Shown piece by piece: positions 1-11,748 of a DNA stretch of 64,000 bases; positions within the stretch are counted from its first letter, which is position 1, and each line of letters starts with the position of its first letter. The position numbers were made by a program, and so were the translations under genes. Under the pieces are notes generated by a model. It was not told the origin of the DNA, did not search any database, and saw only the letters and a list, made by a program, of their open reading frames with translations. The stretch comes from Calditrichota bacterium (GTDB lineage: Bacteria > CLD3): positions 70,431 through 134,430 of the forward strand of contig QQUF01000040.1 of assembly GCA_008501735.1 (NCBI GenBank), in the 5' to 3' direction.

Positions 1-135
1 CTTCACAATCTTTCTAAGAGATTTTCCCGAAAGCACTTTTAAATCTTACGTTGAGGAAGGTTTGCAATCGATAAAGTAGTTTTTTTATTCGATATAATGA
101 ATTTCAACTAATGATAGATAATAGGAGAAAATAAA

Positions 136-2406
136 ATGCCCTTTAGAGACTCAGATATTGCAAAAGCAATATATAATAGAAATGTTCAAAGTATAGTTTC
201 GTTATTCTTTAAAAACGAAAATAATATACCAAAAATAAAACATGGATTTAATACTGAAACTGAGCTTTGGGATTATAAAAGCAATTCTCCAAAAATAGCA
301 AGAAACGATAAAATAGCTTTAGAAGATTGGGCAGAGATGTGTAAAGATATTTTAGCTTTTCATAATCAAAAAGGAGGAATAATTTTTTTTGGTATTGATG
401 ATGATTTTAAATTTCTTGGGGCAAATACTACATTAGATAGTAAAAAAGTTAATGATAAAATTAAGAAATATTTACCTGATACAATTTGGGTTGAATACCA
501 TAGAGAATTTATACAATCAGATCAAAGGTATTTAGGTATTGCTATAATTCAACCTAGAGGACCTGTTTTTGAAAGATTTACTTACACATCTCCTAAAAAA
601 TATAACGGAAAGCTCATTTTTAAAAAAGGGGACTCAGCGATAAGACAAGGTGATTCTTCCATAATTATAAAACAAAATGAAGTGAATAAATTTCATAGTA
701 ATAAATTAAGCCCAATCCTAAATAAAATTTATACAGTTGATGAAAGTTATTTTAGAATACTACAACCAGATTACAATAAATTTGTAGAAAGAAAAGAACT
801 GTGTAAAGAAGTGTTAAACTCAATAAACGATCCAAGAGTCTCAGTAACATCTTTAATTGGAATTGGAGGAGTTGGTAAAACAGCAACAGCAACTTGGGCA
901 GTTTTAGAAGCCTATAAGAAAAGTCTATTTCGTTTTATTGTTTCAATTACTGCAAAAGACAGAGAACTTACAGCATTTGGTATAAAAGCTTTAGAACCTA
1001 AACTTACTAGCTTTGAGTCTTTGTTGAATGCAATTTTTGATGTACTAGGGTTTCCAGAATTAAAAACTAATAGTATTTTAGAAAAAGAAAAAGAGGCAAA
1101 GGAACTTCTTAAAAACTCTGACGGATTACTTTATGTTGATAATTTGGAAACAGTTGATGACTTAAGGATAATTATGTTTTTAGATTCATTACCTGTTGGA
1201 GTTCACGCGATTGTAACTTCAAGAAGGTCACGTGTTAGAGTTGCAACAAGACCAATTGAGGTAAAACAATTAAATGAGAAAGAGGCCATAAGTTTTATCA
1301 AAACCTTATCAGAAGAATCAGGGTTAAAATATTGTAGTTCATTTTCAAAAAATGAATATTTTAGAATAAGAAACTCATGTGATGGAATCCCATTGGCTAT
1401 GAGATGGACATTAACTAAATCTAAAACACCTCAAGATGCCTTAAGACTTGCTGAAAATATTACACATAGAAGTTTACAAGGGGAAGAGCTATTAGAGTTT
1501 TGTTTTAGGAGAGTTTTCCAAGAAATGGATTCCATTGAAAAAGAAATTTTACAGATTTTGTCAATTTTTAATCACCCAATACAATATGAAGCTATAATTG
1601 TTGGAATGAACATGGATGGGTTACATGAAAGAGTTTCTGATGTAATTGAAGGATTGATTGAAGATGCTTTAGTAAATAGGATTTTTGATACAGAAACGAA
1701 CGACTATAATTTTTTCTTGTCGCCAATTACAAAGTCTTTTATTTATGCTGATGTTAGAAAAGATAAACAATTTGAGAAAAATATTCGAAAGAAACTTACT
1801 CGGTATTTTGAAGCGAATGATATTCAGGGAGAAGAAAAAAGAAAAATTATTAGAGGTATTCGCCAAGGAGAAAGTAATAATGAATCCGCACTCATTGATT
1901 TAGCAATTTCTGCAAAGAGAAAGCATGATATAGATGGAGCCGAAATATTATTGAATCAAGCTCTAAATAGAAACCCGAGAAGTTGGAAAGCTTCGAGAGA
2001 ACTTGCAGAACTTTATAGAAAAAAAGAAAACCTTTCGGAGGCTCTAAAGTTATATGAGCAAGCAGCTATAAATTCTCCTAGAAGAGGCAATGATAAAGCT
2101 TTAATTTATAGAGAATGGGGAATGTTATTAAGACAATCAGGTTTACCTAAAGCAACTGACTACGCCATTGATAAATTTGAAGTCTCATTACTAGAGGCTC
2201 CAAATGATGAAATTACTCTTACGGCAGTTTCTCAACTTTATTATAAAAAAGGAATGAATAAAAAAGTTATAGAATATCTAGAACCATTGATAAATCATCC
2301 TAATCAAAGAACAAGAACCTTTGTTTTGCCTTTGCTTTTAAAAGCTTATAAAAACACAAACGATATTTTAAAAATTGCTCAGGTCAAAAAATTAATGGAA
2401 AATTAG
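136..2406 (+). CDS. STAND/NLR-like NTPase: N-terminal Schlafen/AlbA_2-like domain + NB-ARC P-loop NTPase + C-terminal TPR repeats (candidate antiviral Avs-like sensor)
   Basis: The N-terminus matches the AlbA_2 pattern (ELWDYKS ... FHNQKGGIIFFGIDDD ... GKLIFKKGDSAIR). The NB-ARC motifs are present: Walker A GIGGVGKTATA, Walker B LLYVDNLE, VTSRR, and the GLPLA-like GIPLAM. C-terminal TPR-like repeats are visible (NQALNRNPRSW..AELYRKK..ALKLYEQAA). A TATAAT-like box lies at ~96-101 upstream. Confidence 0.7.
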   Translation: MPFRDSDIAKAIYNRNVQSIVSLFFKNENNIPKIKHGFNTETELWDYKSNSPKIARNDKIALEDWAEMCKDILAFHNQKGGIIFFGIDDDFKFLGANTTLDSKKVNDKIKKYLPDTIWVEYHREFIQSDQRYLGIAIIQPRGPVFERFTYTSPKKYNGKLIFKKGDSAIRQGDSSIIIKQNEVNKFHSNKLSPILNKIYTVDESYFRILQPDYNKFVERKELCKEVLNSINDPRVSVTSLIGIGGVGKTATATWAVLEAYKKSLFRFIVSITAKDRELTAFGIKALEPKLTSFESLLNAIFDVLGFPELKTNSILEKEKEAKELLKNSDGLLYVDNLETVDDLRIIMFLDSLPVGVHAIVTSRRSRVRVATRPIEVKQLNEKEAISFIKTLSEESGLKYCSSFSKNEYFRIRNSCDGIPLAMRWTLTKSKTPQDALRLAENITHRSLQGEELLEFCFRRVFQEMDSIEKEILQILSIFNHPIQYEAIIVGMNMDGLHERVSDVIEGLIEDALVNRIFDTETNDYNFFLSPITKSFIYADVRKDKQFEKNIRKKLTRYFEANDIQGEEKRKIIRGIRQGESNNESALIDLAISAKRKHDIDGAEILLNQALNRNPRSWKASRELAELYRKKENLSEALKLYEQAAINSPRRGNDKALIYREWGMLLRQSGLPKATDYAIDKFEVSLLEAPNDEITLTAVSQLYYKKGMNKKVIEYLEPLINHPNQRTRTFVLPLLLKAYKNTNDILKIAQVKKLMEN

Positions 2407-2439: not shown

Positions 2440-3366
2440 CTAAGTATATTTTTCGTCACTCCAAGCAACAGAAGAAATTTTCCACTTCTGACTAACTTTG
2501 ACAAACTGAATTGTTTTTATTCCTCTTGAGGTGAAAAGCTCGTTATTTAGGATTCCTGATTTCTCATAAAAACTAAATCTTTGTGCAATGTTTCCGAAAA
2601 TTTTTGTCTCACCTGTGATTTCAAATTCACTGAAATTCGTGAGCGTTCCATCTATCAGCATCTTTTCTCTTGGAGCAATAAAATCTTGCAAATTAGAAAC
2701 AACAGGTTTTCCGTTTGTATTACTGATTAACATTCCTTCGGGAATGCACAAATCGAAAATTTTTTTAAAGTTTGGAACTTTTCCGTCAGTGTTTGTGAAC
2801 AAATCAAAAAATCTTGCAGTTAGTTCGTCAATTTTCTTTTTGTCTTCATTTTGGTTTGGCGGTGCAAAAACCAAAGTATCTCTTTCTTGTGAGTCTTTAA
2901 TACTTTTTTCAAATTGAAGACCAATTTTGTTCAAAAGTTTAATTGAAGTAACATTATTAGGTGCAGTGATTCCGAGAACCTTCTCTAAGTTTAAAGTGGT
3001 CTTTGCGTAAGTCATTGTTGCATTTGCACTCTCAAAACCAAACCCTAAACCTTCGTATTCAGGAAGCATTGCAAAACCAATGTCAACGTCTTCCAAATAA
3101 CCTCGATTGACCAAACCGCACATTCCAATTGGAATTTTTGAGTCTTTTAATTCAACTAACCAAAGTCCGTAACCAAATTTTTTATAACTGCTAATTATCA
3201 CTTTTTCTAAGTAGGTTTTTGCAGCTTCGACAGTTTTTGGTCCGTTTGTGCCAATGAATTTCCGCCAACCTTCCGAATTAACCAATTCAACAGTAAACTC
3301 AGCGTCATCAAAATTAAATTCACGAACTCCTAATCTTGCTGTCTCAAAAATCATTTTTGCATCCAT
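2440..3366 (-). CDS. GNAT family N-acetyltransferase (RimJ/RimL-like) fused to a C-terminal NTF2/SnoaL-like domain
   Basis: The N-terminal 170 aa show an Acetyltransf_3-like pattern (ARLGVREFNFDDAEF..GYGLWLVEL..IGMCGL). The C-terminal ~130 aa are an unrelated small domain. Confidence 0.6.
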   Translation of the reverse strand: MDAKMIFETARLGVREFNFDDAEFTVELVNSEGWRKFIGTNGPKTVEAAKTYLEKVIISSYKKFGYGLWLVELKDSKIPIGMCGLVNRGYLEDVDIGFAMLPEYEGLGFGFESANATMTYAKTTLNLEKVLGITAPNNVTSIKLLNKIGLQFEKSIKDSQERDTLVFAPPNQNEDKKKIDELTARFFDLFTNTDGKVPNFKKIFDLCIPEGMLISNTNGKPVVSNLQDFIAPREKMLIDGTLTNFSEFEITGETKIFGNIAQRFSFYEKSGILNNELFTSRGIKTIQFVKVSQKWKISSVAWSDEKYT

Positions 3367-3379
3367 TTAGTTTTTTAGG

Positions 3380-3862
3380 TTAAATTTTTAATGTTAATTC
3401 TGGAAAAAAAGGTTCTTCAAATCCTATGTTTTTGTAAACTCCAATTCCATCTTTTGTAGCGTGTAAATGCACAAACTCTAATTCCATTCCTTTTGCTTCT
3501 TCTTTTAACTTTTCTAATAAAATTGATGCTACACCTTTTTTTCTGAATTCTTTCAGAGTAAACATATTCAAAATGTATCCGCGTTTTCCTGATTTACCAA
3601 TTCCGGAATAACTTGGTGGAGCTTTCCAAATTACGAGACAACTTGTACCAATTACTTGATTTTTGTATTCTGCGAACCAAGCAATTAATGTTTTATCTGA
3701 CAATGCTTTGCTAAAATACTCGTTTAAGCAATTTCTAAGTTTTTCCGATTCTAATTCTGTCTTATTTGGAAATATTTCATTTAAAAATTCAATTCTGTAA
3801 TTTGTTAAAACAGAAATATCTTTTTCTTCTGCTTTTCTATAAGAAATCTTTTTTGAGTCCAT
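3380..3862 (-). CDS. GNAT family N-acetyltransferase
   Basis: 160 aa with the GNAT core motif (RKKGVASILLEKLKEEAKGMELEFVHLHAT). Confidence 0.7.
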   Translation of the reverse strand: MDSKKISYRKAEEKDISVLTNYRIEFLNEIFPNKTELESEKLRNCLNEYFSKALSDKTLIAWFAEYKNQVIGTSCLVIWKAPPSYSGIGKSGKRGYILNMFTLKEFRKKGVASILLEKLKEEAKGMELEFVHLHATKDGIGVYKNIGFEEPFFPELTLKI

Positions 3863-3889: not shown

Positions 3890-6727
3890 TTATTTTAATA
3901 ATGTCATTCTTTTTCTAACGGAATAATTTCCTGCTTTGAGTCTGTAAAAATAAACTCCACTTCCAACTTGTTTTCCAAGCTCGTCAGTTCCGTTCCAAAC
4001 AACAGAACCTTTTGCTTTGTCCAAGACAAACTCTTTCACCTTTTTACCCAAAATATCAAAAATTACCAATTTACCTTTCTCGTAATTCGTAATTCGTAAT
4101 TCGTAATTTATAGAAGTTGAAGGGTTGAATGGGTTTGGGTAGTTTTGACTTAAGTAAAAATCCTCTGGAGTAGAGTTCAGATTTTCCTCTAAAGAAACAC
4201 CTGTGTCCACCAGAAAGCACTGAAAGTTTTCATTTGTAGTTTGTGAAGTTCCTTGTTCCTTGAAAAATTCTTCATTTTCAGCTTTGACACTAAAACAGTA
4301 ATTTCCAGTTGGCAAAGTTCCTGCCTGAATTGTTGCAAATGTGTCAGTTGTCGTAATTACTAAAAGTGAATCGGCAAAGTTAGAGGTTGAATCAATAACA
4401 ACGGTGTAAGTAACAACGCTTCCATTTGGCGAAGAAGTTGATTCCCAAGTCAAGTTGAAATCTGAATCAGTAAAAACGGTGTCGTTTTCGGAAGGCGTTA
4501 AAAGGCTAAAATCTTCTAAGAACAATTCATTCACATCAAGTGTAAACATTGACCTTCCGTAAGTTCCGACAAGTAAAGTTCGAGTTGGATTGTGAATTTT
4601 AATTTCGTTAATCGGAACAGTCGGAATTTGTTCTCCAAGAAAGTGCCAATCTTCACCCAAATTAGTTGTGTAAAACGGTCCAACGTCAGTTCCGATGTAA
4701 AGAACTTCGTTGTCAACAGAGTCAACAATTACAGAATTTATCGGAGCATCAGGCAAATTTGAAGCGATTGAAGTCCAAGTCTGACCGAAGTCTTCTGTTC
4801 TAAAAATGTGTGGAAGGTTTTCGTCAATTCTGAAACCTGAAAGCGTAACGTAAGCAACTGAATCGGCGTAAAGGTCAGTCATTACTCTTGTAATCCAACG
4901 AGTCGGAAGTTGGGCAGAAATTTCAGTCCAAGAAGTTCCGCCGTTTGTCGTTACTTGAACTGTTCCGTCGTCGCAACCAACATAAATTATGTCAGAGTTT
5001 ACAGGCGAAACGGCAATTGTAGTGATTGTTCCAAAAGTGTAACTTCCACTTCCCGGACCTTGTGTCAAGTCAGGTGAAATAGGACTCCAAGAAATTGCGG
5101 AATTTGTACTTTTGTAAAGTTTGTTGCTTCCATAAAAAAGTGTGTTCGGGTCAAAAGGATCGAAAACAACAGGAGTTTGCCAATTTTTTCTGTCTGAATT
5201 ACTAATTCCTTGAGTTGCACTTTGAAAACTAAAACCGCCGTCAGTTGAACGCTGTAAATTTCCGTACTGATATTCGCAATAAATTTTGTTTGAATTAGTT
5301 CTGTCCACTAAAACATAAAATCCGTCTCCGCCAAAAATATTCTGAAAATTCGTTCCGTTGACTTGTTGTAAAGTTCCGTTGTCTTGAGCTCCACCATAAA
5401 TTTTTGTTGGATTCAAGTAGTCAAATTCCACGTTGTAAAATTGGTTGTTGGGTAAGCCGTTTAGTTTGAACCAAGTGTTTCCGCCGTTGCTTGAAGTGTA
5501 AAGTCCTCCGTCGTTACCACAGAAAATTTTGTTCGGATTATTTGGGAAAATGTAAATTGCGTGATGGTCAACGTGCATTGAACTTCCTGTAATATTCCAC
5601 GAATTTCCGCCGTCAGTTGAATTGTAAAGATTCAAACCTGAAAGAAAAAGATTGTCGGGATTTGTTGGGTCAACCCAAAGTCTGTTGAACCACCAACCAA
5701 AAGATGAAAGTGCGTTGTTAAGGTCAGTTGTTGGACTTTGTGTCCACGAATTTCCACCATCAGTAGTTTTGTAAAATCCGTCAAAGTAACCGATTTGGTC
5801 AATGTAACTTGCGTAAAGAATGTTTGGACTTGAATTTGAAATTGCGAGACCGATTCTTCCACTGTTTGCACTTGCTTGTGGCAAGCCGTTTATTAGCAAA
5901 TTCCAAGTTGTTCCGCCGTCAGTTGAACGGTAAATTCCACTTCCTTCGCCTCCGTAAACTCTGTTCTCAGGAGTTCGGATTCGTTGCCACATTGCTGCAT
6001 AAATTGTATTTGGATTGTTAGGGTTTATCGCTAAATCAATTGCTCCTGTCGAATCGTTGACTGCCAAAACTTGTTGCCAAGTTTGACCTGCGTCTGTCGA
6101 GCGGTAAACTCCTCTTTCAGAATTTGTAGAAAAAAGTGAACCCATTGCCGCAACAAAAATGTTATTCGAGTTTTGCGGGTCAATTACGATTTTGCTAATG
6201 TAGTAAGAATCGGGCAAACCAATATTTGTCCAAGAATTTCCGCCGTCAGTTGACTTTGAAACTCCAAAACCTGCGTAACAAACACTTCCTCCTCCGGCAT
6301 TTGGCTCACCTTGTCCGACGTAAATTGTATTTTCGTCATTCGGGTCAATTGCAATGTCGCCGATTGAAAGCGAAAGCTCGGAATCAAAAATCGGAGTAAA
6401 ACTTGTGGCATTGTTTGTAGTCTTGAAAACTCCACCACTTGCACTTCCGATGTAAACTGTGCCTGGAGTATTTGGGTGAGCTTCAATGTCTGTAATTCTT
6501 CCGCCAATGTTTGTCGGGCCAACTTGAATCCAATCAGGTTGATTCTGAGTTTGAGCGATTTGCTGCATTCCCTTGGTTTTGAGAAGAGCTTCTTTGTAAG
6601 CACGTTGGTTTATGTCTTTTGCAGGATAAGATTTTTCAATAAAAAACCAATCGTTTGGTGCTTTAGGTGGCTTTTGTTCCGCACAAGAAATTGTGAAGAT
6701 TAGCGTTAAAAGTAAAAGTATTTTCAT
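3890..6727 (-). CDS. secreted BNR/sortilin (GH74-like) repeat protein with T9SS C-terminal sorting domain
   Basis: Multiple BNR motifs are present (STDGGNSW, STDAGQTW, TTDGGNSW, STDGGTTW). The C-terminus carries NYPNPFNPSTSINYEL..GVYFYRLKAG...LLK. The likely true start is MKILLLLTLIFTISC (lipoprotein-like signal) at 6727, not the 6808 of the ORF track. Confidence 0.75.
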   Translation of the reverse strand: MKILLLLTLIFTISCAEQKPPKAPNDWFFIEKSYPAKDINQRAYKEALLKTKGMQQIAQTQNQPDWIQVGPTNIGGRITDIEAHPNTPGTVYIGSASGGVFKTTNNATSFTPIFDSELSLSIGDIAIDPNDENTIYVGQGEPNAGGGSVCYAGFGVSKSTDGGNSWTNIGLPDSYYISKIVIDPQNSNNIFVAAMGSLFSTNSERGVYRSTDAGQTWQQVLAVNDSTGAIDLAINPNNPNTIYAAMWQRIRTPENRVYGGEGSGIYRSTDGGTTWNLLINGLPQASANSGRIGLAISNSSPNILYASYIDQIGYFDGFYKTTDGGNSWTQSPTTDLNNALSSFGWWFNRLWVDPTNPDNLFLSGLNLYNSTDGGNSWNITGSSMHVDHHAIYIFPNNPNKIFCGNDGGLYTSSNGGNTWFKLNGLPNNQFYNVEFDYLNPTKIYGGAQDNGTLQQVNGTNFQNIFGGDGFYVLVDRTNSNKIYCEYQYGNLQRSTDGGFSFQSATQGISNSDRKNWQTPVVFDPFDPNTLFYGSNKLYKSTNSAISWSPISPDLTQGPGSGSYTFGTITTIAVSPVNSDIIYVGCDDGTVQVTTNGGTSWTEISAQLPTRWITRVMTDLYADSVAYVTLSGFRIDENLPHIFRTEDFGQTWTSIASNLPDAPINSVIVDSVDNEVLYIGTDVGPFYTTNLGEDWHFLGEQIPTVPINEIKIHNPTRTLLVGTYGRSMFTLDVNELFLEDFSLLTPSENDTVFTDSDFNLTWESTSSPNGSVVTYTVVIDSTSNFADSLLVITTTDTFATIQAGTLPTGNYCFSVKAENEEFFKEQGTSQTTNENFQCFLVDTGVSLEENLNSTPEDFYLSQNYPNPFNPSTSINYELRITNYEKGKLVIFDILGKKVKEFVLDKAKGSVVWNGTDELGKQVGSGVYFYRLKAGNYSVRKRMTLLK
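4081..4108. repeat. perfect 4x heptanucleotide tandem repeat (cgtaatt)4 inside the T9SS CTD coding region
   Basis: Read directly from the sequence. It encodes ..INYELRITNYE.. on the minus strand. The unit length is not a multiple of 3. Confidence 0.9.
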
Positions 6728-6877
6728 TTTAAACTCTCTGTTTTGAATAGTTTCAATAAAATTTAAGCAAGAAACCCAAAAAATCACAACATTCAAATTT
6801 TTCACCAATCATTATCATTGCATTTTAGAGTCTTAGAAATTACATTTTCCACTTAATCAAAACAGCAAGGAAAACCA

Positions 6878-8221
6878 ATGCTAACTAAAGACCAATTTGC
6901 CGACCTTTCGGAAAAAATTATAAAATTATCTCCTGCAAATGAGACAGAAGTAAGTTATGCAGGAAGTGAAAATTCCCTGACAAGATTTTCGAATAATATC
7001 ATTACTCAAAATGTTATCAAAAAGGACGAATCAATTTCAATTTTATTAGTAAAAGAAGGTAAAACAAGTCGTGTGAGAATTCACGAATTTGACGACGAGT
7101 CAATTAATAAAGCCTTCAAAAATGGAATGGAAATTATGAGCCTTTCCAAAGAACACGATAAATTCCTTCCGTTGCCTGAAGCACAAAAATATCAAGAAAT
7201 CAGAAATTGCTTTTTTGAAGACACAGCCAATTTTTCACCGATTGAAAGAGCAGAGCAGATTTCATTCGCAGTGAAAGAAGCGGAAGCTAAAAAATTATCA
7301 ATGGCAGGAATTTATACTTCAGGTGAAACTCGTTCTGCAATGGCAAATTCAAATGGTTTAATAGCATTTGACAAAAGAACAAATGCACAAGTTTCATTAA
7401 CTGCACAATCTGAGACAAGTTATGGTTGGGCAGAAGACGGAAACAGAGACGTTGCCAAAATTGACATCGAAAAAGCAACTCAAACGGCAATCGAAAAATG
7501 CCTTACAAGCCAAAACCCAACCGAAATTGAACCCGGAAAATACGATGTAGTTTTGGAAGCTCCTTGTGTAACTGACTTTCTTTCTTACTTGAATTGGAAA
7601 GCATTCGGTGGACTTGCTTACTTGGAAAATAGAAGTTTTATGGCAGGTAAACTCGGTCAAAAAATCTTTGGTGAAAACATCACAATCAAAGAAAATGCTT
7701 TCAACGAAATGAATCCGGGAAAACCTTACGATGGAGAAGGAATGCCAAAGAAACCTGTAACTCTCATCGAAAACGGTGTTTTAAAAGAAATCGTTCACGA
7801 CCGATACACAGCTCAAAAAGTTGGGACTGAATCAACAGGTCACGGTTTTGGATTTCCAAATTCAATTGGACCTTACCCTTCAAATCTCGAACTTTCAGCA
7901 GGAAACTCAAGCCTTGAAGAAATGATTGCTTCAACAGAAAGAGGACTTTTGGTAACTCATTTTCACTACACGAACACACTTGACCATTTTAATTTAATTT
8001 TGACAGGAATGACTCGCGACGGACTTTGGTTAATCGAAAATGGTAAAATTTCAAGACCAGTGATGAATCTTCGTTTCACCGACAGTATTCCACGAGTTAT
8101 GAACAACATCGAATTGATTTCAAAAGAATTGCAATTCAAACACACATTTTGGGGAAGCGGATTCGTTGTTCCTTCAATCAAAGTAAAAGACTTCAACTTC
8201 TCAAGCAAAACGGAAAGGTAG
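6878..8221 (+). CDS. pmbA: TldE/PmbA family metalloprotease-like protein
   Basis: 447 aa in the TldD/PmbA fold without an HExxxH motif. It sits in the canonical neighbourhood with tldD. Confidence 0.75.
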   Translation: MLTKDQFADLSEKIIKLSPANETEVSYAGSENSLTRFSNNIITQNVIKKDESISILLVKEGKTSRVRIHEFDDESINKAFKNGMEIMSLSKEHDKFLPLPEAQKYQEIRNCFFEDTANFSPIERAEQISFAVKEAEAKKLSMAGIYTSGETRSAMANSNGLIAFDKRTNAQVSLTAQSETSYGWAEDGNRDVAKIDIEKATQTAIEKCLTSQNPTEIEPGKYDVVLEAPCVTDFLSYLNWKAFGGLAYLENRSFMAGKLGQKIFGENITIKENAFNEMNPGKPYDGEGMPKKPVTLIENGVLKEIVHDRYTAQKVGTESTGHGFGFPNSIGPYPSNLELSAGNSSLEEMIASTERGLLVTHFHYTNTLDHFNLILTGMTRDGLWLIENGKISRPVMNLRFTDSIPRVMNNIELISKELQFKHTFWGSGFVVPSIKVKDFNFSSKTER

Positions 8222-8229
8222 GAATTCCG

Positions 8230-9567
8230 ATGCTAATTTTAGAAGAACTCGAAATTGTAAAATTTAAAAACGATTACGGCGACGAACTCATCACAAACCA
8301 AAAGATGAAATTCGGCAAAAGTTTAAATTTACTCATCGGTCCAAATGGTGGTGGGAAAACTACTTTATTAAAAATTTTACAGGCTTGTGTTTCATTTGAT
8401 TTTGAGGAACTGAAAGAGAATGAATTTGAGATAAAAGTAAAAGGTGAAGTCTATTTTTTGGGTATTAAGCGAGCAAAAATCCAAGCAGAATTTGATTCAA
8501 TAAAGAAGAAAACAAAGATAGAAGAAAAGGTTGAGCTTCAAGCAATCAAGAAAAATACCGATAGAACTAGGCAAAAAAATATTTTAAACTTCAAAATCAA
8601 TTATAGCTTTGATGATGGAAATCCTAACTTCACTATTAATAAGAGAAGTAATGAAATTAATATTTACGAAAATGAAGCTCTTAAAAAAAATAAAGATTTT
8701 TATAGTGATAATTGGAACTTTGGTGATTTCTTTTCTGACTTAAAAGTAGAAACGCAAAATGATAAAAAGTTTTTAAACCATAGTAAGTTGTCTTTTCTCC
8801 AAACTCCTTCAATGTACCGTAGAGGAGTTGAAGATATTTCCGAATTAGAAGCTATCTTAAGAAAGACAATAAAAACTTATATTTTAGGAAAACCTAAATT
8901 TAATCCTTTTCCTTCTTACCTTTTCAGTGAACCAGAATATGGTGAGTTAAATAACATTATTTTTTGGGAACTTGGTAAGTTTTTAGAAAACCATAAAGAT
9001 TATAAAAAAATAATTGAAATTGATAATTTAGACTTAGAATTCAAAAGTGATTTTTTGCAAAGAATTAAGCAAAAATATACTTTTTTTGATTCTTTTATAA
9101 TCAGATTCAGTGATAAAATTACTTCCAAAGAGGAAATTGAATACCGAGATGGAAAAATTATTTTCTTTAAAAATAAAAGAGAAATGGATTTTAATAAAGC
9201 CACAACTTGGGGGCAAAAAAGATTCATTTATTTATTAAGTAAAATTGAGGCTCAAGATACACCTCTAATTGATGAAATAGAAAATGGCTTTCACCCGAAA
9301 ATGGTGAGGGATTTGATAAATAGTATTTATGAACAAAAGCCACAAAAACAAGCTTTTGTTACTACTCACAGTCATCACATTATCAACAGTCTAAATTACG
9401 ACTCAATGGAAGAACTTGGTAAGTCAATTGTGCTTTGTAAAATTAGCAAGGAAGAAAAGCTTACTTTCGCAAACTTGAAAGGTAAAAATCTAGAAGTTAA
9501 TTTTAATAAAGTCAGAACTGGGTTAGTAGATTTACCAGAATCTTTACTTTTTGAGGGAATTTGGTAG
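8230..9567 (+). CDS. ABC/AAA_21-type (SMC-like) ATPase, OLD/PARIS-AriA-like. First gene of an inserted 2-gene cassette.
   Basis: Walker A LLIGPNGGGKTTLLK follows an SMC-like N-terminus (LEELEIVKFKN). A signature-like TTWGQKRF, Walker B LIDEIENGFHP and H-loop AFVTTHSHH are present. The ORF-track start 8149 overlaps pmbA. The internal ATG at 8230 (MLILEEL) lies 8 nt after the pmbA stop. The region is AT-richer than its flanks. Confidence 0.7.
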   Translation: MLILEELEIVKFKNDYGDELITNQKMKFGKSLNLLIGPNGGGKTTLLKILQACVSFDFEELKENEFEIKVKGEVYFLGIKRAKIQAEFDSIKKKTKIEEKVELQAIKKNTDRTRQKNILNFKINYSFDDGNPNFTINKRSNEINIYENEALKKNKDFYSDNWNFGDFFSDLKVETQNDKKFLNHSKLSFLQTPSMYRRGVEDISELEAILRKTIKTYILGKPKFNPFPSYLFSEPEYGELNNIIFWELGKFLENHKDYKKIIEIDNLDLEFKSDFLQRIKQKYTFFDSFIIRFSDKITSKEEIEYRDGKIIFFKNKREMDFNKATTWGQKRFIYLLSKIEAQDTPLIDEIENGFHPKMVRDLINSIYEQKPQKQAFVTTHSHHIINSLNYDSMEELGKSIVLCKISKEEKLTFANLKGKNLEVNFNKVRTGLVDLPESLLFEGIW

Positions 9568-10266
9568 GTGAAGATTTTTTATTTTACAGAAGATGTAGCT
9601 TCACCTGAAGTTAACGAGAAGATTATCCAGTCAAGTTTAAACTTTTTAGGGTTCAGAGATGCAGTAGTTTTTCAGCAAGAAGGAATTAAAATACTTGGTG
9701 CAGATATAAATAATTTGAAAAATTTTCAGACTCTTATAAGTAATATTTTAGCAAAAGCAATTCTTGAAGAGGAGAAAGTTATATTCTGTTTTCATATAGA
9801 TACCGAAGTAAGTTTTGATATTTTTCAGCGTTCTTTGAACGGTGAAATTGATTTACTAGAAAATGGTACTATTTTGAAGAAATATTTAAGAGACTACCAA
9901 GAAATAATTAAGACCCTTTTTAAAGCTGCTATGCAAATTTCTGAAAATTTGAAATCTGATAGTTTTGTAGAAATGTTCCCTTGTCGCGCAATAGAAAGTT
10001 GGTGTGCGGCAAATCAACCTGAACTTATCATTCAGAATAGGCAAGTAAGAAAAGAACTAGCACAAATTATTAACTTACCGTTTTTAGATTACCTTCAAAA
10101 ACTTGATGAAATTGAAAAGTTTAAATTTGGAAAAACTGGAAGACAAGGGAAAGGTTTAGGTACGATGTTGAAACTTGTAAACAACAATTTCCCAACTAAA
10201 GAATTTTACGGAATTGAAAAGTCTTTTCACAGATTTGTGGAAAATTTAAGGTTAGCGATAAATTAG
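9568..10266 (+). CDS. ~232-aa partner protein, putative Toprim/DUF4276-like nuclease component
   Basis: A GTG start lies immediately after the ATPase stop (TAG GTG), so the genes are translationally coupled. The N-terminal hh-E-D (IFYFTEDV) and central D-T-E (FHIDTEV) motifs resemble Toprim acidic motifs. The family assignment is tentative. Confidence 0.45.
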   Translation: MKIFYFTEDVASPEVNEKIIQSSLNFLGFRDAVVFQQEGIKILGADINNLKNFQTLISNILAKAILEEEKVIFCFHIDTEVSFDIFQRSLNGEIDLLENGTILKKYLRDYQEIIKTLFKAAMQISENLKSDSFVEMFPCRAIESWCAANQPELIIQNRQVRKELAQIINLPFLDYLQKLDEIEKFKFGKTGRQGKGLGTMLKLVNNNFPTKEFYGIEKSFHRFVENLRLAIN

Positions 10267-10290: not shown

Positions 10291-11748
10291 ATGAAAAGAT
10301 TAGCCGAATTAGCGATTGACACAGCGGTTTTGAATGGAGCTTCTTATGCAGACATTAGAATAATTTACACTAAAAGAGAAAAGTTAGAAGTTACAACCGG
10401 TCACGTTACAGAAATGGATATTTCTGAAAATGTTGGCTTCGGAGTTAGAGTAATTGCAAATGGAGCTTGGGGGTTTGCAAGTTCAAACAATCTTAAAGTT
10501 GAAGAAATTCAAAAGACAGCAAAACTCGCAGTCCAAATTGCAAAAGCAAGTGCAATGCTCAAAAAACAAGATGTAAAACTTGCCAAAGAACCTGTTCACA
10601 ACGAGAGATGGCAAACACCTTACTTGATTGACCCATTTCAAGTTCCGATGCACGAAAAACTGGGTTTAATGCACCAAATTGATGACATTCTCAGAAGAGA
10701 CAGTCAAATTAAACGAACTTCCGTTTCAATGGATTTCTTGATGGAACACCAATGGCTTGCAACTTCAGAAGGAACTTTTATTGACCAAAAATTAATGAGA
10801 AGTGGAGTAGGTTACAGTGCAACAGCAGTCGGAAATAACGATATGCAAATTCGTTCTTACCCAAATTCTTTTAGAGGGCAGTATATGACAATGGGTTATG
10901 AATTGATTCACGGAATTCCACTTGTCGAAAATGCTGAAAGAGTCAGAGAGGAAGCGATTGCACTTTTGACAGCAAAAGAATGCCCTGAAGGCACAAAAGA
11001 TATAATTTTAGACGGAACTCAAATGGCTTTGCAAATCCACGAGTCAGTTGGACACGCAACAGAACTCGACAGAGTTTTGGGAATGGAAGCAAATTACGCA
11101 GGAATGAGTTTTGCGACATTAGAAAAGCTCAACAACTTTCGTTACGGTTCTGACGTTGTGAATTTAGTTTGTGATTCAACGGTTCCAAACGGACTTGCAA
11201 CAATCGGTTACGATGACGACGGAGTTCGTGCAAAACGTTATCATTTGGTGAAAGATGGTGATTTTGTCGGCTACCAATTTAACAGAGAACTTGCTCACAC
11301 AATCGAAGCAGAAGAGTCGAGCGGAAACAATAGAGCTCACGGTTGGAGCAATATTCCGATTGTAAGAATTACAAACCTGAGTTTAATGCCTGGTGAATGG
11401 GAATTTGATGATTTGGTTTCTGACACTGAAGATGGAATTTATATGGAAACCAACAAATGTTGGAGCATTGACCAATGGCGATTAAATTTTGAATTTGGAA
11501 CTGAAATCGGTTGGGAAATTAAAAACGGTAAAAAAGGTGAAATGCTCAAAAATTGCTCTTACCAAAGCATCACACCGAAATTCTGGGGTTCTTGCGACGC
11601 AATTTGTAACGACAATTATTGGACACTTTGGGGAGTAAGTAATTGCGGAAAAGGCCAACCTGGACAAACCGCCGAAATGTCTCACGGTGCTTCTCCAACA
11701 AGATTCAGAAACATAAATGTCGGAATTGGAAATTCAACTTTGAAATGA
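10291..11748 (+). CDS. tldD: TldD metalloprotease
   Basis: HESVGHATELD (HExxxH) is present. The 485 aa are typical TldD length and organisation. Confidence 0.85.
   Translation: MKRLAELAIDTAVLNGASYADIRIIYTKREKLEVTTGHVTEMDISENVGFGVRVIANGAWGFASSNNLKVEEIQKTAKLAVQIAKASAMLKKQDVKLAKEPVHNERWQTPYLIDPFQVPMHEKLGLMHQIDDILRRDSQIKRTSVSMDFLMEHQWLATSEGTFIDQKLMRSGVGYSATAVGNNDMQIRSYPNSFRGQYMTMGYELIHGIPLVENAERVREEAIALLTAKECPEGTKDIILDGTQMALQIHESVGHATELDRVLGMEANYAGMSFATLEKLNNFRYGSDVVNLVCDSTVPNGLATIGYDDDGVRAKRYHLVKDGDFVGYQFNRELAHTIEAEESSGNNRAHGWSNIPIVRITNLSLMPGEWEFDDLVSDTEDGIYMETNKCWSIDQWRLNFEFGTEIGWEIKNGKKGEMLKNCSYQSITPKFWGSCDAICNDNYWTLWGVSNCGKGQPGQTAEMSHGASPTRFRNINVGIGNSTLK

What the first reader, a model, noticed from the sequence alone, without database searches (positions are those of the whole stretch)
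136..2406. NLR-like STAND NTPase with Schlafen/AlbA_2 N-terminal domain and TPR C-terminus at the window edge
The tripartite architecture is the hallmark of antiviral STAND (Avs/bNLR-type) defence proteins: a putative effector or nucleic-acid-binding AlbA_2/Schlafen domain, an NB-ARC NTPase (GIGGVGKT, hhhhD, TSRR, GLPLA-like GIPLAM), and a TPR sensor. A Schlafen-type N-terminal module on a prokaryotic NB-ARC is not one of the commonly listed Avs effector types. It is next to a cluster of GNAT genes.
Basis: partly seen in the sequence, partly recalled or inferred. Interest (0 to 1): 0.7.

Follow-up and report, generated by a model that had tools for sequence, protein, structure and literature searches.

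The report
Schlafen-RNase NLR-like defence protein
This gene encodes a compact bacterial NLR-like switch protein (Schlafen-type RNase head, NB-ARC ATPase core, short TPR tail) that most likely is a single-gene anti-phage suicide RNase; the general design is already known from other bacterial and human proteins, but this particular family has not been described or tested.

Summary
Window 136-2406 (+) is a 756-aa ORF with SLFN_AlbA_2 (47.6 bits), NB-ARC (34 bits) and about 5.5 TPRs to the C-terminus, and no HTH. The N-domain model matches only SAMD9/Schlafen/AlbA_2 structures, and the Schlafen catalytic motif Ex4DxK (E41, D46, K48) is invariant across the family. Walker A, Walker B and TSRR are invariant too.

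Orthologues (37-56% identity, about 750 aa) are scattered over at least 12 phyla with almost no phylum signal, and they have no conserved neighbour. About 5 of 8 annotated contexts are defence or mobile-element regions. One orthologue is translationally coupled inside hsdM-hsdS-X-hsdR. Relatives with the same NB-ARC-TPR body carry HEPN RNase heads instead.

Best reading: a single-gene Avs-like abortive-infection sensor whose oligomerisation assembles a tRNA-cleaving Schlafen nuclease. The trigger is unknown.

Schlafen heads on bacterial STANDs are published (bNACHT34 and Avs9), and prokaryotic Schlafens are proven tRNase defence effectors. This NB-ARC/AfsR-like compact family gets no PADLOC hit and does not appear in the papers I could read. 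The GNATs are not partners. It is a new variant of a known kind, of moderate interest.

The parts
123..127 (+). Shine-Dalgarno-like AGGAG, 8 nt before the ATG
   Evidence: Read directly from the sequence (L001 9988-9992 = window 123-127). No sigma-70 promoter or terminator signal above chance was found in 1-2700.
136..2406 (+). Complete CDS, 756 aa: Schlafen/AlbA_2 - NB-ARC - TPR STAND protein (MAG Calditrichaeota 'hypothetical protein DWQ06_10245')
   Evidence: ORF. 100% identical database entry P0001. Pfam domains. AlphaFold model with mean pLDDT 87.7.
136..207 (+). N-terminal two-helix extension (aa 1-24) packed on the AlbA_2 domain
   Evidence: Helices 2-14 and 17-24, pLDDT 86-97, in the N-domain model. 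It is the least conserved segment (column conservation 0.49).
208..705 (+). Single-lobe Schlafen/AlbA_2 domain (aa ~25-190; Pfam match aa 41-175), the predicted RNase effector
   Evidence: Pfam PF04326 47.6 bits. N-domain model pLDDT 92.9, pTM 0.89. The top 34 Foldseek PDB hits are all AlbA_2/SAMD9/SLFN structures, after which E jumps from 0.02 to 0.37. The family profile hits only Schlafens in PDB sequences.
256..279 (+). Schlafen catalytic motif Ex4(E/D)xK: E41-TELW-D46-Y-K48
   Evidence: E41, W45, D46 and K48 are invariant in 46 homologues. The motif is present in ~54 of 78 full-length cluster representatives of the wider family. The motif definition is from PMC13056530.
397..405 (+). Acidic loop D88-D89-D90 after the AFHNxxGG strand; D89 aligns with the third catalytic Asp of Schlafens
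   Evidence: The HMM alignment places D89 opposite the Asp of the GVHD segment in SLFN5 (residue 233 in 6rr9 chain numbering), and the same segment of SLFN13 aligns. D89 is Asp in 72% of the family, and 27 of 28 sequences have an acidic residue in this loop.
808..1479 (+). NB-ARC nucleotide-binding domain plus helical domain (aa 225-448)
859..882 (+). Walker A / P-loop GIGGVGKT (aa 242-249)
   Evidence: G244, G245, G247, K248 and T249 are invariant.
1126..1149 (+). Walker B LLYVDNLE (aa 331-338), followed by invariant T339, D341, D342
   Evidence: L331, D335, N336, L337 and E338 are invariant.
1216..1227 (+). TSRR (aa 361-364), in the sensor-1 / RNBS-B-like position
   Evidence: Invariant in 46 sequences. 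The functional assignment is by analogy with NB-ARC proteins (inference).
1384..1401 (+). GIPLAM (aa 417-422), GLPLA-like motif of the helical domain
   Evidence: C415 is invariant; D416, P419, L420 and A421 are >= 90% conserved.
1480..1815 (+). Winged-helix / ARC2-like region and linker helices (aa 449-560)
   Evidence: Model helices 449-509, beta-hairpin 514-527, helices 530-558. The 6mfv profile match covers aa 442-537. No canonical MHD histidine could be identified (manual reading, inconclusive).
1816..2403 (+). C-terminal TPR array (aa 561-756, 11 helices, about 5.5 repeats), the predicted sensor; no domain follows it

Best explanation
The gene encodes a stand-alone, horizontally mobile, Avs-like (bacterial NLR-like) immune sensor whose killing module is a Schlafen-type RNase.

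**Proposed mechanism**
1. At rest the protein is an ADP-bound, autoinhibited monomer, with the short TPR array folded back on the NB-ARC/winged-helix core (inferred from STAND-TPR precedent).
2. A trigger binds the TPR array. The trigger is unknown. It is most likely a conserved phage protein or peptide, or possibly a host complex disturbed by infection.
3. Nucleotide exchange lets the NB-ARC modules oligomerise (inferred from the invariant Walker A, Walker B and sensor motifs).
4. Oligomerisation brings the single-lobe AlbA_2 domains together into the paired arrangement that forms an active Schlafen nuclease. That nuclease cleaves tRNA, shuts down translation and aborts the infection.

**Shown here:** the domain identities and folds, the invariance of the catalytic and NTPase residues, the single-gene nature, the HGT pattern, the frequent defence and mobile-element contexts, and the exchange of the Schlafen head for HEPN RNase heads on the same chassis.

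**Inferred:** RNase activity, tRNA as the substrate, oligomerisation-dependent activation, the trigger, and phage protection.
For: **Effector identity**
- Pfam SLFN_AlbA_2 scores above its gathering score.
- The N-domain model (pLDDT 92.9) matches only AlbA_2/SAMD9 tRNase/SLFN5, 11, 12, 13, 14 structures.
- Ex4DxK is invariant and retained in ~54 of 78 wider-family representatives.
- The same motif is the catalytic signature of prokaryotic Schlafens proven to cleave tRNA and protect against phage (PMC13056530).

**Effector role**
- Proteins sharing the NB-ARC-TPR body carry instead an N-terminal HEPN RNase. P0221 has HEPN_Swt1.
- 16 + 7 relatives carry Rx4-6H motifs, and the head matches the PADLOC candidate-defence protein PDC-M34B at 3.8e-24.

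**Switch**
- NB-ARC scores above its gathering score, and the fold is closest to 6mfv, Apaf-1 and plant NLRs.
- Walker A, Walker B and TSRR are invariant.

**Activation by oligomerisation: precedent**
- ATP-driven tetramerisation reconstitutes the Slfn nuclease in SLFN-pAgo.
- cA4-induced filaments align the catalytic interfaces in Cash.
- RorSlfn5 is a hexamer.
- Avs9 toxicity depends on the AlbA_2 active site.

**Accessory, defence-like genomics**
- No neighbour or small ORF is conserved in 35-40 loci.
- Orthologues lie inside hsdM-hsdS-X-hsdR with an ATGA overlap.
- Others lie between T4SS genes and a type I R-M plus a second AlbA_2 gene, next to GmrSD, and in integrase/HNH/PIN/HicA islands.
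- The commonest neighbour families in 13 loci are type I R-M, MADS, AAA_21/AAA_15 and HNH.
- Mean identity within a phylum (49.9%) is about the same as between phyla (47.2%).
- Only ~37 orthologues turned up in 185,579 species genomes.
- In this window a PtuA/AriA/AbiLi-like ATPase cassette lies 6 kb away, and the gene has the lowest GC3 of the window.
Against: - There is no experimental datum for any member of this family.
- PADLOC-DB v2 gives no hit.
- No homologue is found on cultured phages, PLSDB plasmids (full-length) or IMG/VR contigs.
One lies directly after thrS-infC-rplT-pheST. The window locus itself is flanked by TPR/NHL, GNAT and protease genes.
- The closest solved NTPase by sequence is AfsR, a transcriptional activator.
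- The TPR 'sensor' is short (~195 aa) and as conserved as the effector. That is unlike the large and more variable sensors of characterised Avs proteins.
- The third catalytic Asp (D89) is Asn in about a quarter of family members.
- The inter-domain geometry of the model is uncertain (pTM 0.46).
Confidence: 0.62

Rival explanations
1. A PrrC/RloC-like guard. The protein does not sense a phage protein directly. Its TPR array instead holds on to a conserved host machine, a type I R-M complex in some lineages. It is released and activated when a phage anti-restriction factor or other insult disturbs that machine, and the Schlafen RNase then cuts tRNA.
For: - One orthologue sits in exactly the prr gene order hsdM-hsdS-X-hsdR, with its stop overlapping the hsdR start.
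- Type I R-M genes are the only recurrent neighbours, in L010, L012/L013 and L083.
- PrrC is an NTPase-regulated tRNA anticodon nuclease kept latent by EcoprrI and activated by a T4 inhibitor of EcoprrI (PMC1484252 abstract).
- A short TPR array that is highly conserved across phyla fits a conserved host ligand better than fast-evolving phage proteins.
Against: - R-M linkage is seen in only ~3 independent cases out of 40 loci, so it cannot be an obligate partner. This resembles RloC ('rarely linked', PMC3458546 abstract).
- Adjacency to R-M is common for any defence gene.
- The protein is not homologous to PrrC.
- The window locus has no R-M genes within the 10 kb seen upstream or the flanking genes downstream.
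Confidence: 0.12
2. An AfsR/MalT-style signal-transducing regulator. Here the AlbA_2 domain is a non-catalytic nucleic-acid-binding head (DNA or RNA), and the NB-ARC-TPR body couples ligand sensing to gene regulation rather than to cell killing.
For: - The best sequence match of the NTPase among solved structures is AfsR (E 6.3e-7, aa 226-505), which has the same order: nucleic-acid-binding head, NB-ARC, TPR.
- The SAMD9 AlbA_2 domain was crystallised as a DNA-binding domain (7ksp).
- Most bacterial AlbA_2 proteins are fused to HisKinase-like and HTH modules (PMC13056530).
- Some contexts are housekeeping.
- D89 is Asn in ~25% of members.
Against: - E41, D46 and K48 are invariant over at least 12 phyla, which makes little sense for a mere binding module.
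- There is no HTH, SARP or LuxR domain.
- There is no conserved neighbouring target operon.
- The gene is rare and patchy, with an HGT pattern.
- The head is exchanged for HEPN RNases, not for DNA-binding domains, in the nearest relatives.
Confidence: 0.08
3. A non-antiviral conflict or stress toxin. The same sensor-switch-RNase logic would be used for something other than phage defence, for example addiction or competition between mobile elements, or stress-induced dormancy.
For: - One copy sits on a conjugative element next to T4SS genes.
- Other copies sit among toxin-antitoxin, integrase and transposase genes.
- One copy is next to Hen1_L, an RNA-repair methyltransferase.
- About 30% of prokaryotic Schlafen genes are not near known defence genes (PMC13056530).
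Against: - Every prokaryotic Schlafen or STAND-effector fusion tested so far behaves as anti-phage or abortive-infection.
- No cognate antitoxin-like small ORF is conserved.
Confidence: 0.1

Closest known systems
Avs9 (bacterial SAMD9/9L analogue; P. fluorescens A0A7T4VS34) and human SAMD9/SAMD9L
   Same: - N-terminal AlbA_2/Schlafen-type nuclease head with the acidic active site, then a STAND P-loop NTPase, then TPRs.
- Avs9 kills E. coli in an AlbA_2-active-site-dependent way (PMC12680541).
- The window N-domain is structurally among the closest to the SAMD9 tRNase domain (9o0d, 7ksp).
   Different: - Avs9 and SAMD9 are ~1,400-1,600 aa and have a SIR2-like domain between head and NTPase, plus a C-terminal OB fold. 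Here the linker is ~30 aa and the protein ends in TPRs.
- The NTPase here scores as NB-ARC and is closest to AfsR, 6mfv, Apaf-1 and plant NLRs. The SAMD9-like AVAST5 filament (9nc9) is only rank 31.
- This is probably an independent fusion.
bNACHT34 and other SLFN-NACHT proteins (Kibby et al.; Cash paper cluster 5; SLFN-pAgo paper)
   Same: A Schlafen RNase at the N-terminus of a bacterial STAND/NLR-related NTPase, proposed as an enzymatic effector.
   Different: - The NTPase there is NACHT. Here Pfam NACHT gives no hit at E <= 1 and NB-ARC passes its threshold.
- The C-terminal sensor here is a short TPR array.
Characterised prokaryotic Schlafens: RorSlfn5/EcoSlfn7 (pSlfn), Cash, SLFN-pAgo
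   Same: - PF04326 domain with the Ex4(E/D)xK motif.
- Sensor-effector fusion logic.
- tRNA cleavage and oligomer-dependent activation in the tested systems.
   Different: - Their sensors are an Ig-like domain, DUF262, Csx15 (cA4) or an Argonaute+GHKL module. None is a STAND NTPase with TPRs.
- I could not verify whether an NTPase-TPR composition is among the 55 listed pSlfn types, because Supplementary Table 2 is not held.
Avs1-5 / Avs7-21 antiviral STANDs (Gao lab)
   Same: N-effector, STAND NTPase, C-terminal TPR-like sensor, single-gene, abortive-infection logic. HEPN_Swt1 is on their effector list.
   Different: - There are no PADLOC Avs/AVAST HMM hits.
- The sensor here is ~195 aa, whereas their analysis took sensors >= 400 aa.
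- pfam04326 is absent from the held part of their effector list.
AfsR (SARP-NB-ARC-TPR transcriptional activator, Streptomyces) and PH0952 (6mfv, archaeal STAND-TPR)
   Same: They are the closest solved NB-ARC/winged-helix/TPR chassis by sequence (8k60 E 6.3e-7; 6mfv E 4.3e-6) and by fold (6mfv is the top Foldseek hit, E 1.4e-14).
   Different: AfsR has an N-terminal SARP DNA-binding domain, and PH0952 has no nuclease head. Here the head is a Schlafen RNase domain with an intact catalytic motif, and no DNA-binding HTH is detected.
PrrC / RloC anticodon nucleases
   Same: - An NTPase-regulated latent tRNase used against phage.
- One orthologue occupies the same slot (hsdM-hsdS-X-hsdR) as prrC.
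   Different: - The folds are unrelated: an ABC-ATPase plus its own ACNase domain.
- prrC is always R-M-linked, whereas this family is linked in only ~3 of 40 loci.

Membership tests
Prokaryotic Schlafen nucleases (pSlfn; PF04326) | Significant match to Pfam SLFN_AlbA_2 | tested here: met
   47.6 bits against a cut-off of 25.3, aa 41-175.
Prokaryotic Schlafen nucleases (pSlfn; PF04326) | Catalytic Ex4(E/D)xK motif (PMC13056530) | tested here: met
   E41-x4-D46-x-K48, invariant in 46 homologues. The third acidic residue D89 is present here but is Asn in ~25% of the family.
Prokaryotic Schlafen nucleases (pSlfn; PF04326) | AlbA_2/Schlafen fold | tested here: met
   With the N-domain model (pLDDT 92.9), the top 34 PDB hits are all AlbA_2/SAMD9/SLFN (TMq up to 0.50). 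The next hit has E 0.37.
Prokaryotic Schlafen nucleases (pSlfn; PF04326) | tRNA cleavage and phage protection | not testable with these tools
   This needs biochemistry and phage assays.
Mammalian Schlafen core | Two-lobed (N-lobe + C-lobe) pseudo-dimeric nuclease domain in one chain | tested here: not met
   There is only one AlbA_2 lobe (aa ~25-190) before the NTPase. A second lobe would have to come from another subunit.
STAND NTPase, NB-ARC type | Match to Pfam NB-ARC; Walker A, Walker B, sensor Arg and GxP motifs | tested here: met
   34 bits against a cut-off of 23.5. GIGGVGKT, LLYVD, TSRR and GIPLA are conserved or invariant.
STAND NTPase, NB-ARC type | NBD-HD-WHD fold like Apaf-1, CED-4 and plant NLRs | tested here: met
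STAND NTPase, NB-ARC type | MHD-type motif in the winged-helix domain | tested here: inconclusive
   N522 and D523 are invariant, and a conserved 'LLPITR' segment follows the WHD hairpin, but no conserved His could be placed there by eye. No structural superposition was available.
Avs1-5 (AVAST) as modelled in PADLOC | Match to the family HMMs | tested here: not met
   0 PADLOC families at E <= 1.
Avs-type antiviral STAND (functional class) | N-terminal effector that is swapped among relatives sharing the NTPase-sensor body | tested here: met
   Relatives matching aa ~203-730 carry HEPN heads instead.
Avs-type antiviral STAND (functional class) | Enrichment in defence islands | tested here: inconclusive
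   5 of 8 Pfam-annotated contexts are clearly defence or mobile-element regions and 3 of 8 are not. Type I R-M, MADS, AAA_21 and HNH are the top neighbour families in 13 loci. No matched genomic control was run.
Avs-type antiviral STAND (functional class) | Activation by a phage protein; phage protection | not testable with these tools
   This needs co-expression screens and plaque assays.
Avs9 / SAMD9 family | SIR2-like domain between AlbA_2 and the NTPase, and a C-terminal OB fold; ~1,400 aa | tested here: not met
   The protein is 756 aa with a 30-aa linker. There is no SIR2 or OB hit, and the chain ends in TPR helices.
bNACHT (bacterial NACHT) proteins | NACHT module | tested here: not met
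   No PF05729 hit at E <= 1. NB-ARC is the only STAND family above its threshold.
AfsR/SARP or MalT-type STAND transcription regulators | DNA-binding domain (SARP wHTH + BTAD at the N-terminus, or LuxR HTH at the C-terminus) | tested here: not met
   No such Pfam hit at E <= 1. The C-terminus is all TPR. The NB-ARC itself is AfsR-like (8k60 E 6.3e-7).
PrrC-type R-M-linked anticodon nuclease | Obligate linkage to a type I R-M operon | tested here: not met
   Linked in L010, L012/L013 and L083 only, ~3 independent cases of 40. There is none at this locus.

The most novel reading that the evidence does not exclude
This is a third, independent fusion of a Schlafen RNase to a STAND switch, this time on the NB-ARC/AfsR-like chassis shared with plant NLRs and Apaf-1. 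It would define a minimal (~750 aa) bacterial NLR. Its short TPR array is ~47% identical across at least 12 phyla, and on this reading it recognises not a variable phage protein but a universally conserved cue: a host machine such as a type I R-M complex or a translation or tRNA component, or a short conserved peptide. It would then be a guard-type tRNase that is functionally convergent with both PrrC and human SAMD9.
Probability: 0.15. Interest if true: 0.7.

Novelty: new variant of a known kind. Interest (0 to 1): 0.45.

Why it matters
If it is confirmed, several things follow.

- The family would add an NB-ARC-type member to the short list of Schlafen-armed NLR-like proteins (bNACHT34, Avs9, SAMD9/9L). 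That would strengthen the case that 'STAND switch + Schlafen tRNase' has been assembled repeatedly in evolution.
- At ~750 aa, with a ~195-aa sensor, it would be one of the smallest complete sensor-switch-effector NLR-like proteins. That makes it attractive for structural work on how NB-ARC oligomerisation assembles a Schlafen nuclease.
- The parallel HEPN-headed relatives give a natural effector-swap series on one chassis.
- Its unusual cross-phylum conservation, sensor included, raises a tractable question about what conserved signal is sensed.
- It lives almost entirely in uncultured soil, peat and groundwater lineages, which is probably why current defence-finder models miss it.

Tried and rejected
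- **PADLOC on the protein:** no hit. NCBIfam gave only sub-threshold TPR/FxSxx_TPR matches.
- **phmmer of the whole protein against PDB:** only TPR hits.
- **Promoter and terminator scan of 1-2700:** nothing above shuffles.
- **tRNA and Rfam scans of the whole window:** nothing.
- **Conserved partner genes:** clustering 582 neighbour ORFs from 40 loci found none. Small ORFs of 25-120 aa beside 35 loci gave none except between near-identical loci. I therefore rejected the GNAT genes and the upstream NHL/TPR and YfiO-like genes as system components.
- **Mobility on phages and plasmids:** no full-length homologue in INPHARED phages, PLSDB plasmids or IMG/VR.
- **Alternative N-termini as divergent AlbA_2:** an HMM of the AlbA_2 head finds nothing in them. 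They are HEPN-like.
- **Literature gaps:** Supplementary Table 2 of PMC13056530 (the 55 pSlfn compositions) is not held, PMC7685563 (Burroughs & Aravind 2020) is not held, and the STAND survey's supplement is truncated. I could not prove that the family is absent from those tables.
- **The 232-aa gene next to the PtuA-like ATPase:** no Pfam, PADLOC or PDB match.
- **HMM summaries of the other two neighbour batches (225 proteins)** were not run. The tool reports counts per family rather than per locus, so they would not have given a per-locus defence score.


Full report

Yes. Window 136-2406 (+) is a single 756-aa ORF with an ATG start. An AGGAG lies 8 nt upstream. An identical protein is deposited as a 'hypothetical protein' of a Calditrichaeota MAG (P0001).

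Pfam gives SLFN_AlbA_2 at aa 41-175 (47.6 bits, cut-off 25.3) and NB-ARC at aa 225-448 (34 bits, cut-off 23.5). It also gives a set of TPR families over aa ~583-660.

An AlphaFold2 model built on 46 homologues is confident (mean pLDDT 87.7). It shows one alpha/beta head (aa 25-190), a Rossmann-like NTPase with helical and winged-helix domains (aa 220-560), and 11 TPR-type helices running to the last residue.

- GIGGVGKT at aa 242-249
- LLYVD at aa 331-335
- TSRR at aa 361-364
- GIPLAM at aa 417-422

Nothing resembling an HTH, SARP or LuxR domain is detected even at E <= 1.

**2. The head is a bona fide Schlafen-type domain with an intact active site.**

The full-length fold searches were swamped by TPR and NTPase hits. 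I therefore modelled aa 1-200 alone (pLDDT 92.9, pTM 0.89).

Its 34 best PDB matches are exclusively AlbA_2-fold proteins: bacterial DIP2311 (3lmm), the rat and human SAMD9 tRNase/DNA-binding domain (9o0d, 7ksp; TMq up to 0.50), and SLFN13, 11, 12, 5 and 14. After these the E-value jumps from 0.02 to 0.37.

A profile of the head finds only Schlafens among PDB sequences. The E-values are marginal (0.017-0.28), but all ten best hits are Schlafens. The alignment falls on the AFxNxxGG...G(V/I)xD strand and puts D89 opposite the Asp of the GVHD segment in SLFN5 (residue 233 in 6rr9 chain numbering).

PMC13056530 defines Ex4(E/D)xK as the catalytic signature of prokaryotic Schlafens. Here it is E41-TELW-D46-Y-K48. 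E41, W45, D46 and K48 are invariant in 46 homologues from many phyla.

The motif also sits ~190-200 residues upstream of Walker A in ~54 of 78 full-length representatives of the wider family.

One caveat: D89 is Asn in about a quarter of members. Even so, 27 of 28 aligned sequences keep an acidic residue in that loop, and the window protein has D88-D89-D90.

The head is a single lobe. Mammalian Schlafens need two lobes.

**3. The body is an NB-ARC-type STAND with a short TPR array.**

By sequence, the family profile's best non-TPR PDB hit is the Streptomyces regulator AfsR (8k60, E 6.3e-7, aa 226-505). Next come 6mfv and NRC1.

So the chassis is of the AfsR/NB-ARC kind. But the DNA-binding SARP head of AfsR is replaced here by the Schlafen domain.

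Walker A (G244, G245, G247, K248, T249), Walker B (D335 and its neighbours) and TSRR are invariant. This argues for a working nucleotide switch.

Conservation is high along the whole chain:

| Region | Column conservation |
|---|---|
| NBD | 0.73 |
| Head | 0.64 |
| TPR | 0.64 |

**4. Family, distribution, context.**

The word-indexed search returned 391 hits. The best 120 are all ~750 aa and 46-55% identical over the full length.

The exhaustive profile search found 747 clusters at E <= 1e-30. About 20 of them form a tight core.

A scan of one genome per species (185,579 species) found ~37 full-length orthologues. They come from Omnitrophota, Nitrospirota, Acidobacteriota, Latescibacterota, Desulfobacterota, Actinomycetota, Eremiobacterota, Verrucomicrobiota, Planctomycetota, Armatimonadota, Gemmatimonadota and Myxococcota.

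Mean identity within a phylum (49.9%) is hardly above that between phyla (47.2%). The gene is therefore rare, patchy and horizontally spread. Three copies look split.

Clustering 582 neighbouring ORFs from 40 loci shows no conserved partner. Only type I R-M subunits recur, in L010, L012/L013 and L083. No small ORF is conserved either. The GNAT genes and the upstream NHL/TPR genes of this window are bystanders.

Five Pfam-annotated neighbourhoods are clearly defence or mobile-element regions:
- One orthologue lies inside hsdM-hsdS-X-hsdR, with its stop overlapping the hsdR start.
- One lies between T4SS conjugation genes and a type I R-M plus a second AlbA_2 gene.
- One lies next to GmrSD.
- Two lie in integrase/HNH/PIN or HicA islands.

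HMM summaries of 131 neighbours from 13 loci put type I R-M, MADS, AAA_21/AAA_15 and HNH on top.

In the window itself, a PtuA/AriA/AbiLi-like ATPase plus an unknown 232-aa gene are wedged between two TldD/PmbA genes ~6 kb away, in a GC trough. The focal gene has the lowest GC3 of the window.

The family is absent from cultured phages, IMG/VR contigs and, at full length, from PLSDB plasmids.

**5. Effector swapping.**

Proteins of 820-940 aa match the family profile only from residue ~203 onward. Ten of them were scanned. All are NB-ARC + TPR, and one has an N-terminal HEPN_Swt1 domain.

Their heads form two clusters of 16 and 7 members. Both carry the HEPN Rx4-6H signature, and none matches an AlbA_2 HMM. 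The HEPN head matches the PADLOC candidate-defence protein PDC-M34B at 3.8e-24.

Two unrelated RNase folds occupy the same slot on one chassis. This is the strongest internal argument that the AlbA_2 head is an RNA-cutting effector rather than a DNA-binding regulator module.

**6. Mechanism.**

I propose the following, with steps marked as inferred where they are.
1. The resting form is an autoinhibited ADP-bound monomer (inferred).
2. An unknown trigger binds the TPR array (inferred).
3. Nucleotide exchange leads to NB-ARC oligomerisation (inferred).
4. The single-lobe heads pair into an active Schlafen nuclease that cleaves tRNA and aborts infection (inferred).

The last step has direct precedent:
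- ATP-driven tetramerisation 'reconstitutes the canonical SLFN nuclease architecture' in SLFN-pAgo.
- cA4-induced filaments 'align catalytic interfaces' in Cash.
- RorSlfn5 is a hexameric, trigger-activated tRNase.
- Avs9 kills E. coli unless its AlbA_2 active site is mutated.

Three rivals remain open: a PrrC/RloC-like guard of R-M or another host machine, an AfsR-like regulator with a non-catalytic head, and a non-antiviral conflict toxin.

**7. Comparison with what is known, and novelty.**

The concept is not new.
- Kibby et al. noted a Schlafen RNase on bNACHT34.
- PMC12680541 named Avs9 for bacterial AlbA_2-SIR2-STAND-TPR-OB proteins analogous to SAMD9/9L.
- Three 2026 papers establish prokaryotic Schlafens as tRNase defence effectors.

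This protein is not a member of any of those families:
- It has no NACHT domain.
- It has no SIR2 or OB domain, and it is half the size of Avs9.
- It gets no Avs/AVAST HMM hit.

The 2026 STAND survey clustered only sensors >= 400 aa, and the held part of its effector list lacks pfam04326.

I found no description of an AlbA_2-NB-ARC-TPR family in the texts available. However, the decisive supplementary tables are not held. It may therefore be catalogued, unnamed, in large surveys.

I rate it a new variant of a known kind, with moderate interest.

The points a specialist might find notable are:
- the compact size
- the cross-phylum conservation of the sensor
- the HEPN-swapped sister group
- the prrC-like placement in one type I R-M operon

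Noticed in passing
window 8149-10266 (+): A 472-aa AAA_15/AAA_21 ABC-type ATPase is followed at once by a 232-aa gene with no Pfam, PADLOC or PDB match. The ATPase hits PADLOC PtuA at 4e-17, AriA at 6e-16, and also AbiLi and GajA. The pair is wedged between two PmbA/TldD genes (6878-8221 and 10291-11748) in a GC trough (0.27-0.30). It looks like an inserted two-gene Septu/PARIS/AbiL-like defence cassette with an unknown effector. The listed TTG start overlaps the preceding gene and is probably too far upstream.
   Followed up: partly
P0221, P0213, P0193 and ~20 further proteins (not in the window): Sister proteins share this NB-ARC-TPR chassis but carry N-terminal HEPN RNase domains. They form two sequence clusters, both with Rx4-6H, and one matches HEPN_Swt1 and PADLOC PDC-M34B. 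P0254 additionally has a C-terminal cold-shock (OB) domain.
   Followed up: partly
L086 7144-15450 (Verrucomicrobia bacterium Tous-C9LFEB): The orthologue is embedded as hsdM-hsdS-[gene]-hsdR. It starts 20 nt after hsdS, and its stop overlaps the hsdR start (ATGA). This is the same gene order as the prrA-prrB-prrC-prrD anticodon-nuclease locus.
   Followed up: partly
L083 1-22256 (JGI metagenome contig): The closest homologue (55% identity) sits on what looks like a conjugative element. T4SS genes (VirB4, VirB8, TrbL, TraG-like coupling protein, relaxase) lie on one side. On the other side are a type I R-M, a SprT-like gene, a Dev_Cell_Death-domain gene and a second, different AlbA_2 gene.
   Followed up: no
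L089 7712-8482: A Hen1_L (bacterial Hen1 RNA-repair methyltransferase family) gene lies ~1.5 kb upstream of one orthologue. This is intriguing next to a putative tRNase, but it was seen in only one locus.
   Followed up: no
L029, L035, L038 (focal gene): In three genomes the orthologue is split into two ORFs (426+372, 442+266 and 227+334 aa). These may be pseudogenes or frameshift assembly errors.
   Followed up: no
family alignment A1/A3, position 89 of the window protein: The residue aligned with the third catalytic Asp of Schlafens is Asn in about a quarter of family members, while E41, D46 and K48 stay invariant. Most of those members have an Asp one residue away. The register of the catalytic loop may differ, or some members may be attenuated.
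   Followed up: partly
window 2440-3366 (-) and 3380-3862 (-): There are two adjacent GNAT acetyltransferase genes. The first (308 aa) has an Acetyltransf_3 domain in aa 11-151 and a ~150-aa C-terminal extension with no Pfam match. Neither has a PADLOC hit. They are conserved next to the gene only in a second contig carrying the identical protein (L002).
   Followed up: partly
window 3890-6808 (-): A 972-aa Sortilin/Vps10 (BNR-type) repeat protein with a C-terminal Por_Secre_tail, so a type IX secretion substrate. The listed TTG start lies upstream of an obvious signal-peptide-like MKILLLL, so the true start is probably later.
   Followed up: no
window 136-2406 versus the rest of the window: The focal gene has the lowest third-position GC of all 46 long ORFs in the window (0.174; mean 0.266, z = -2.5). 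This is compatible with foreign origin but is not proof of it.
   Followed up: partly
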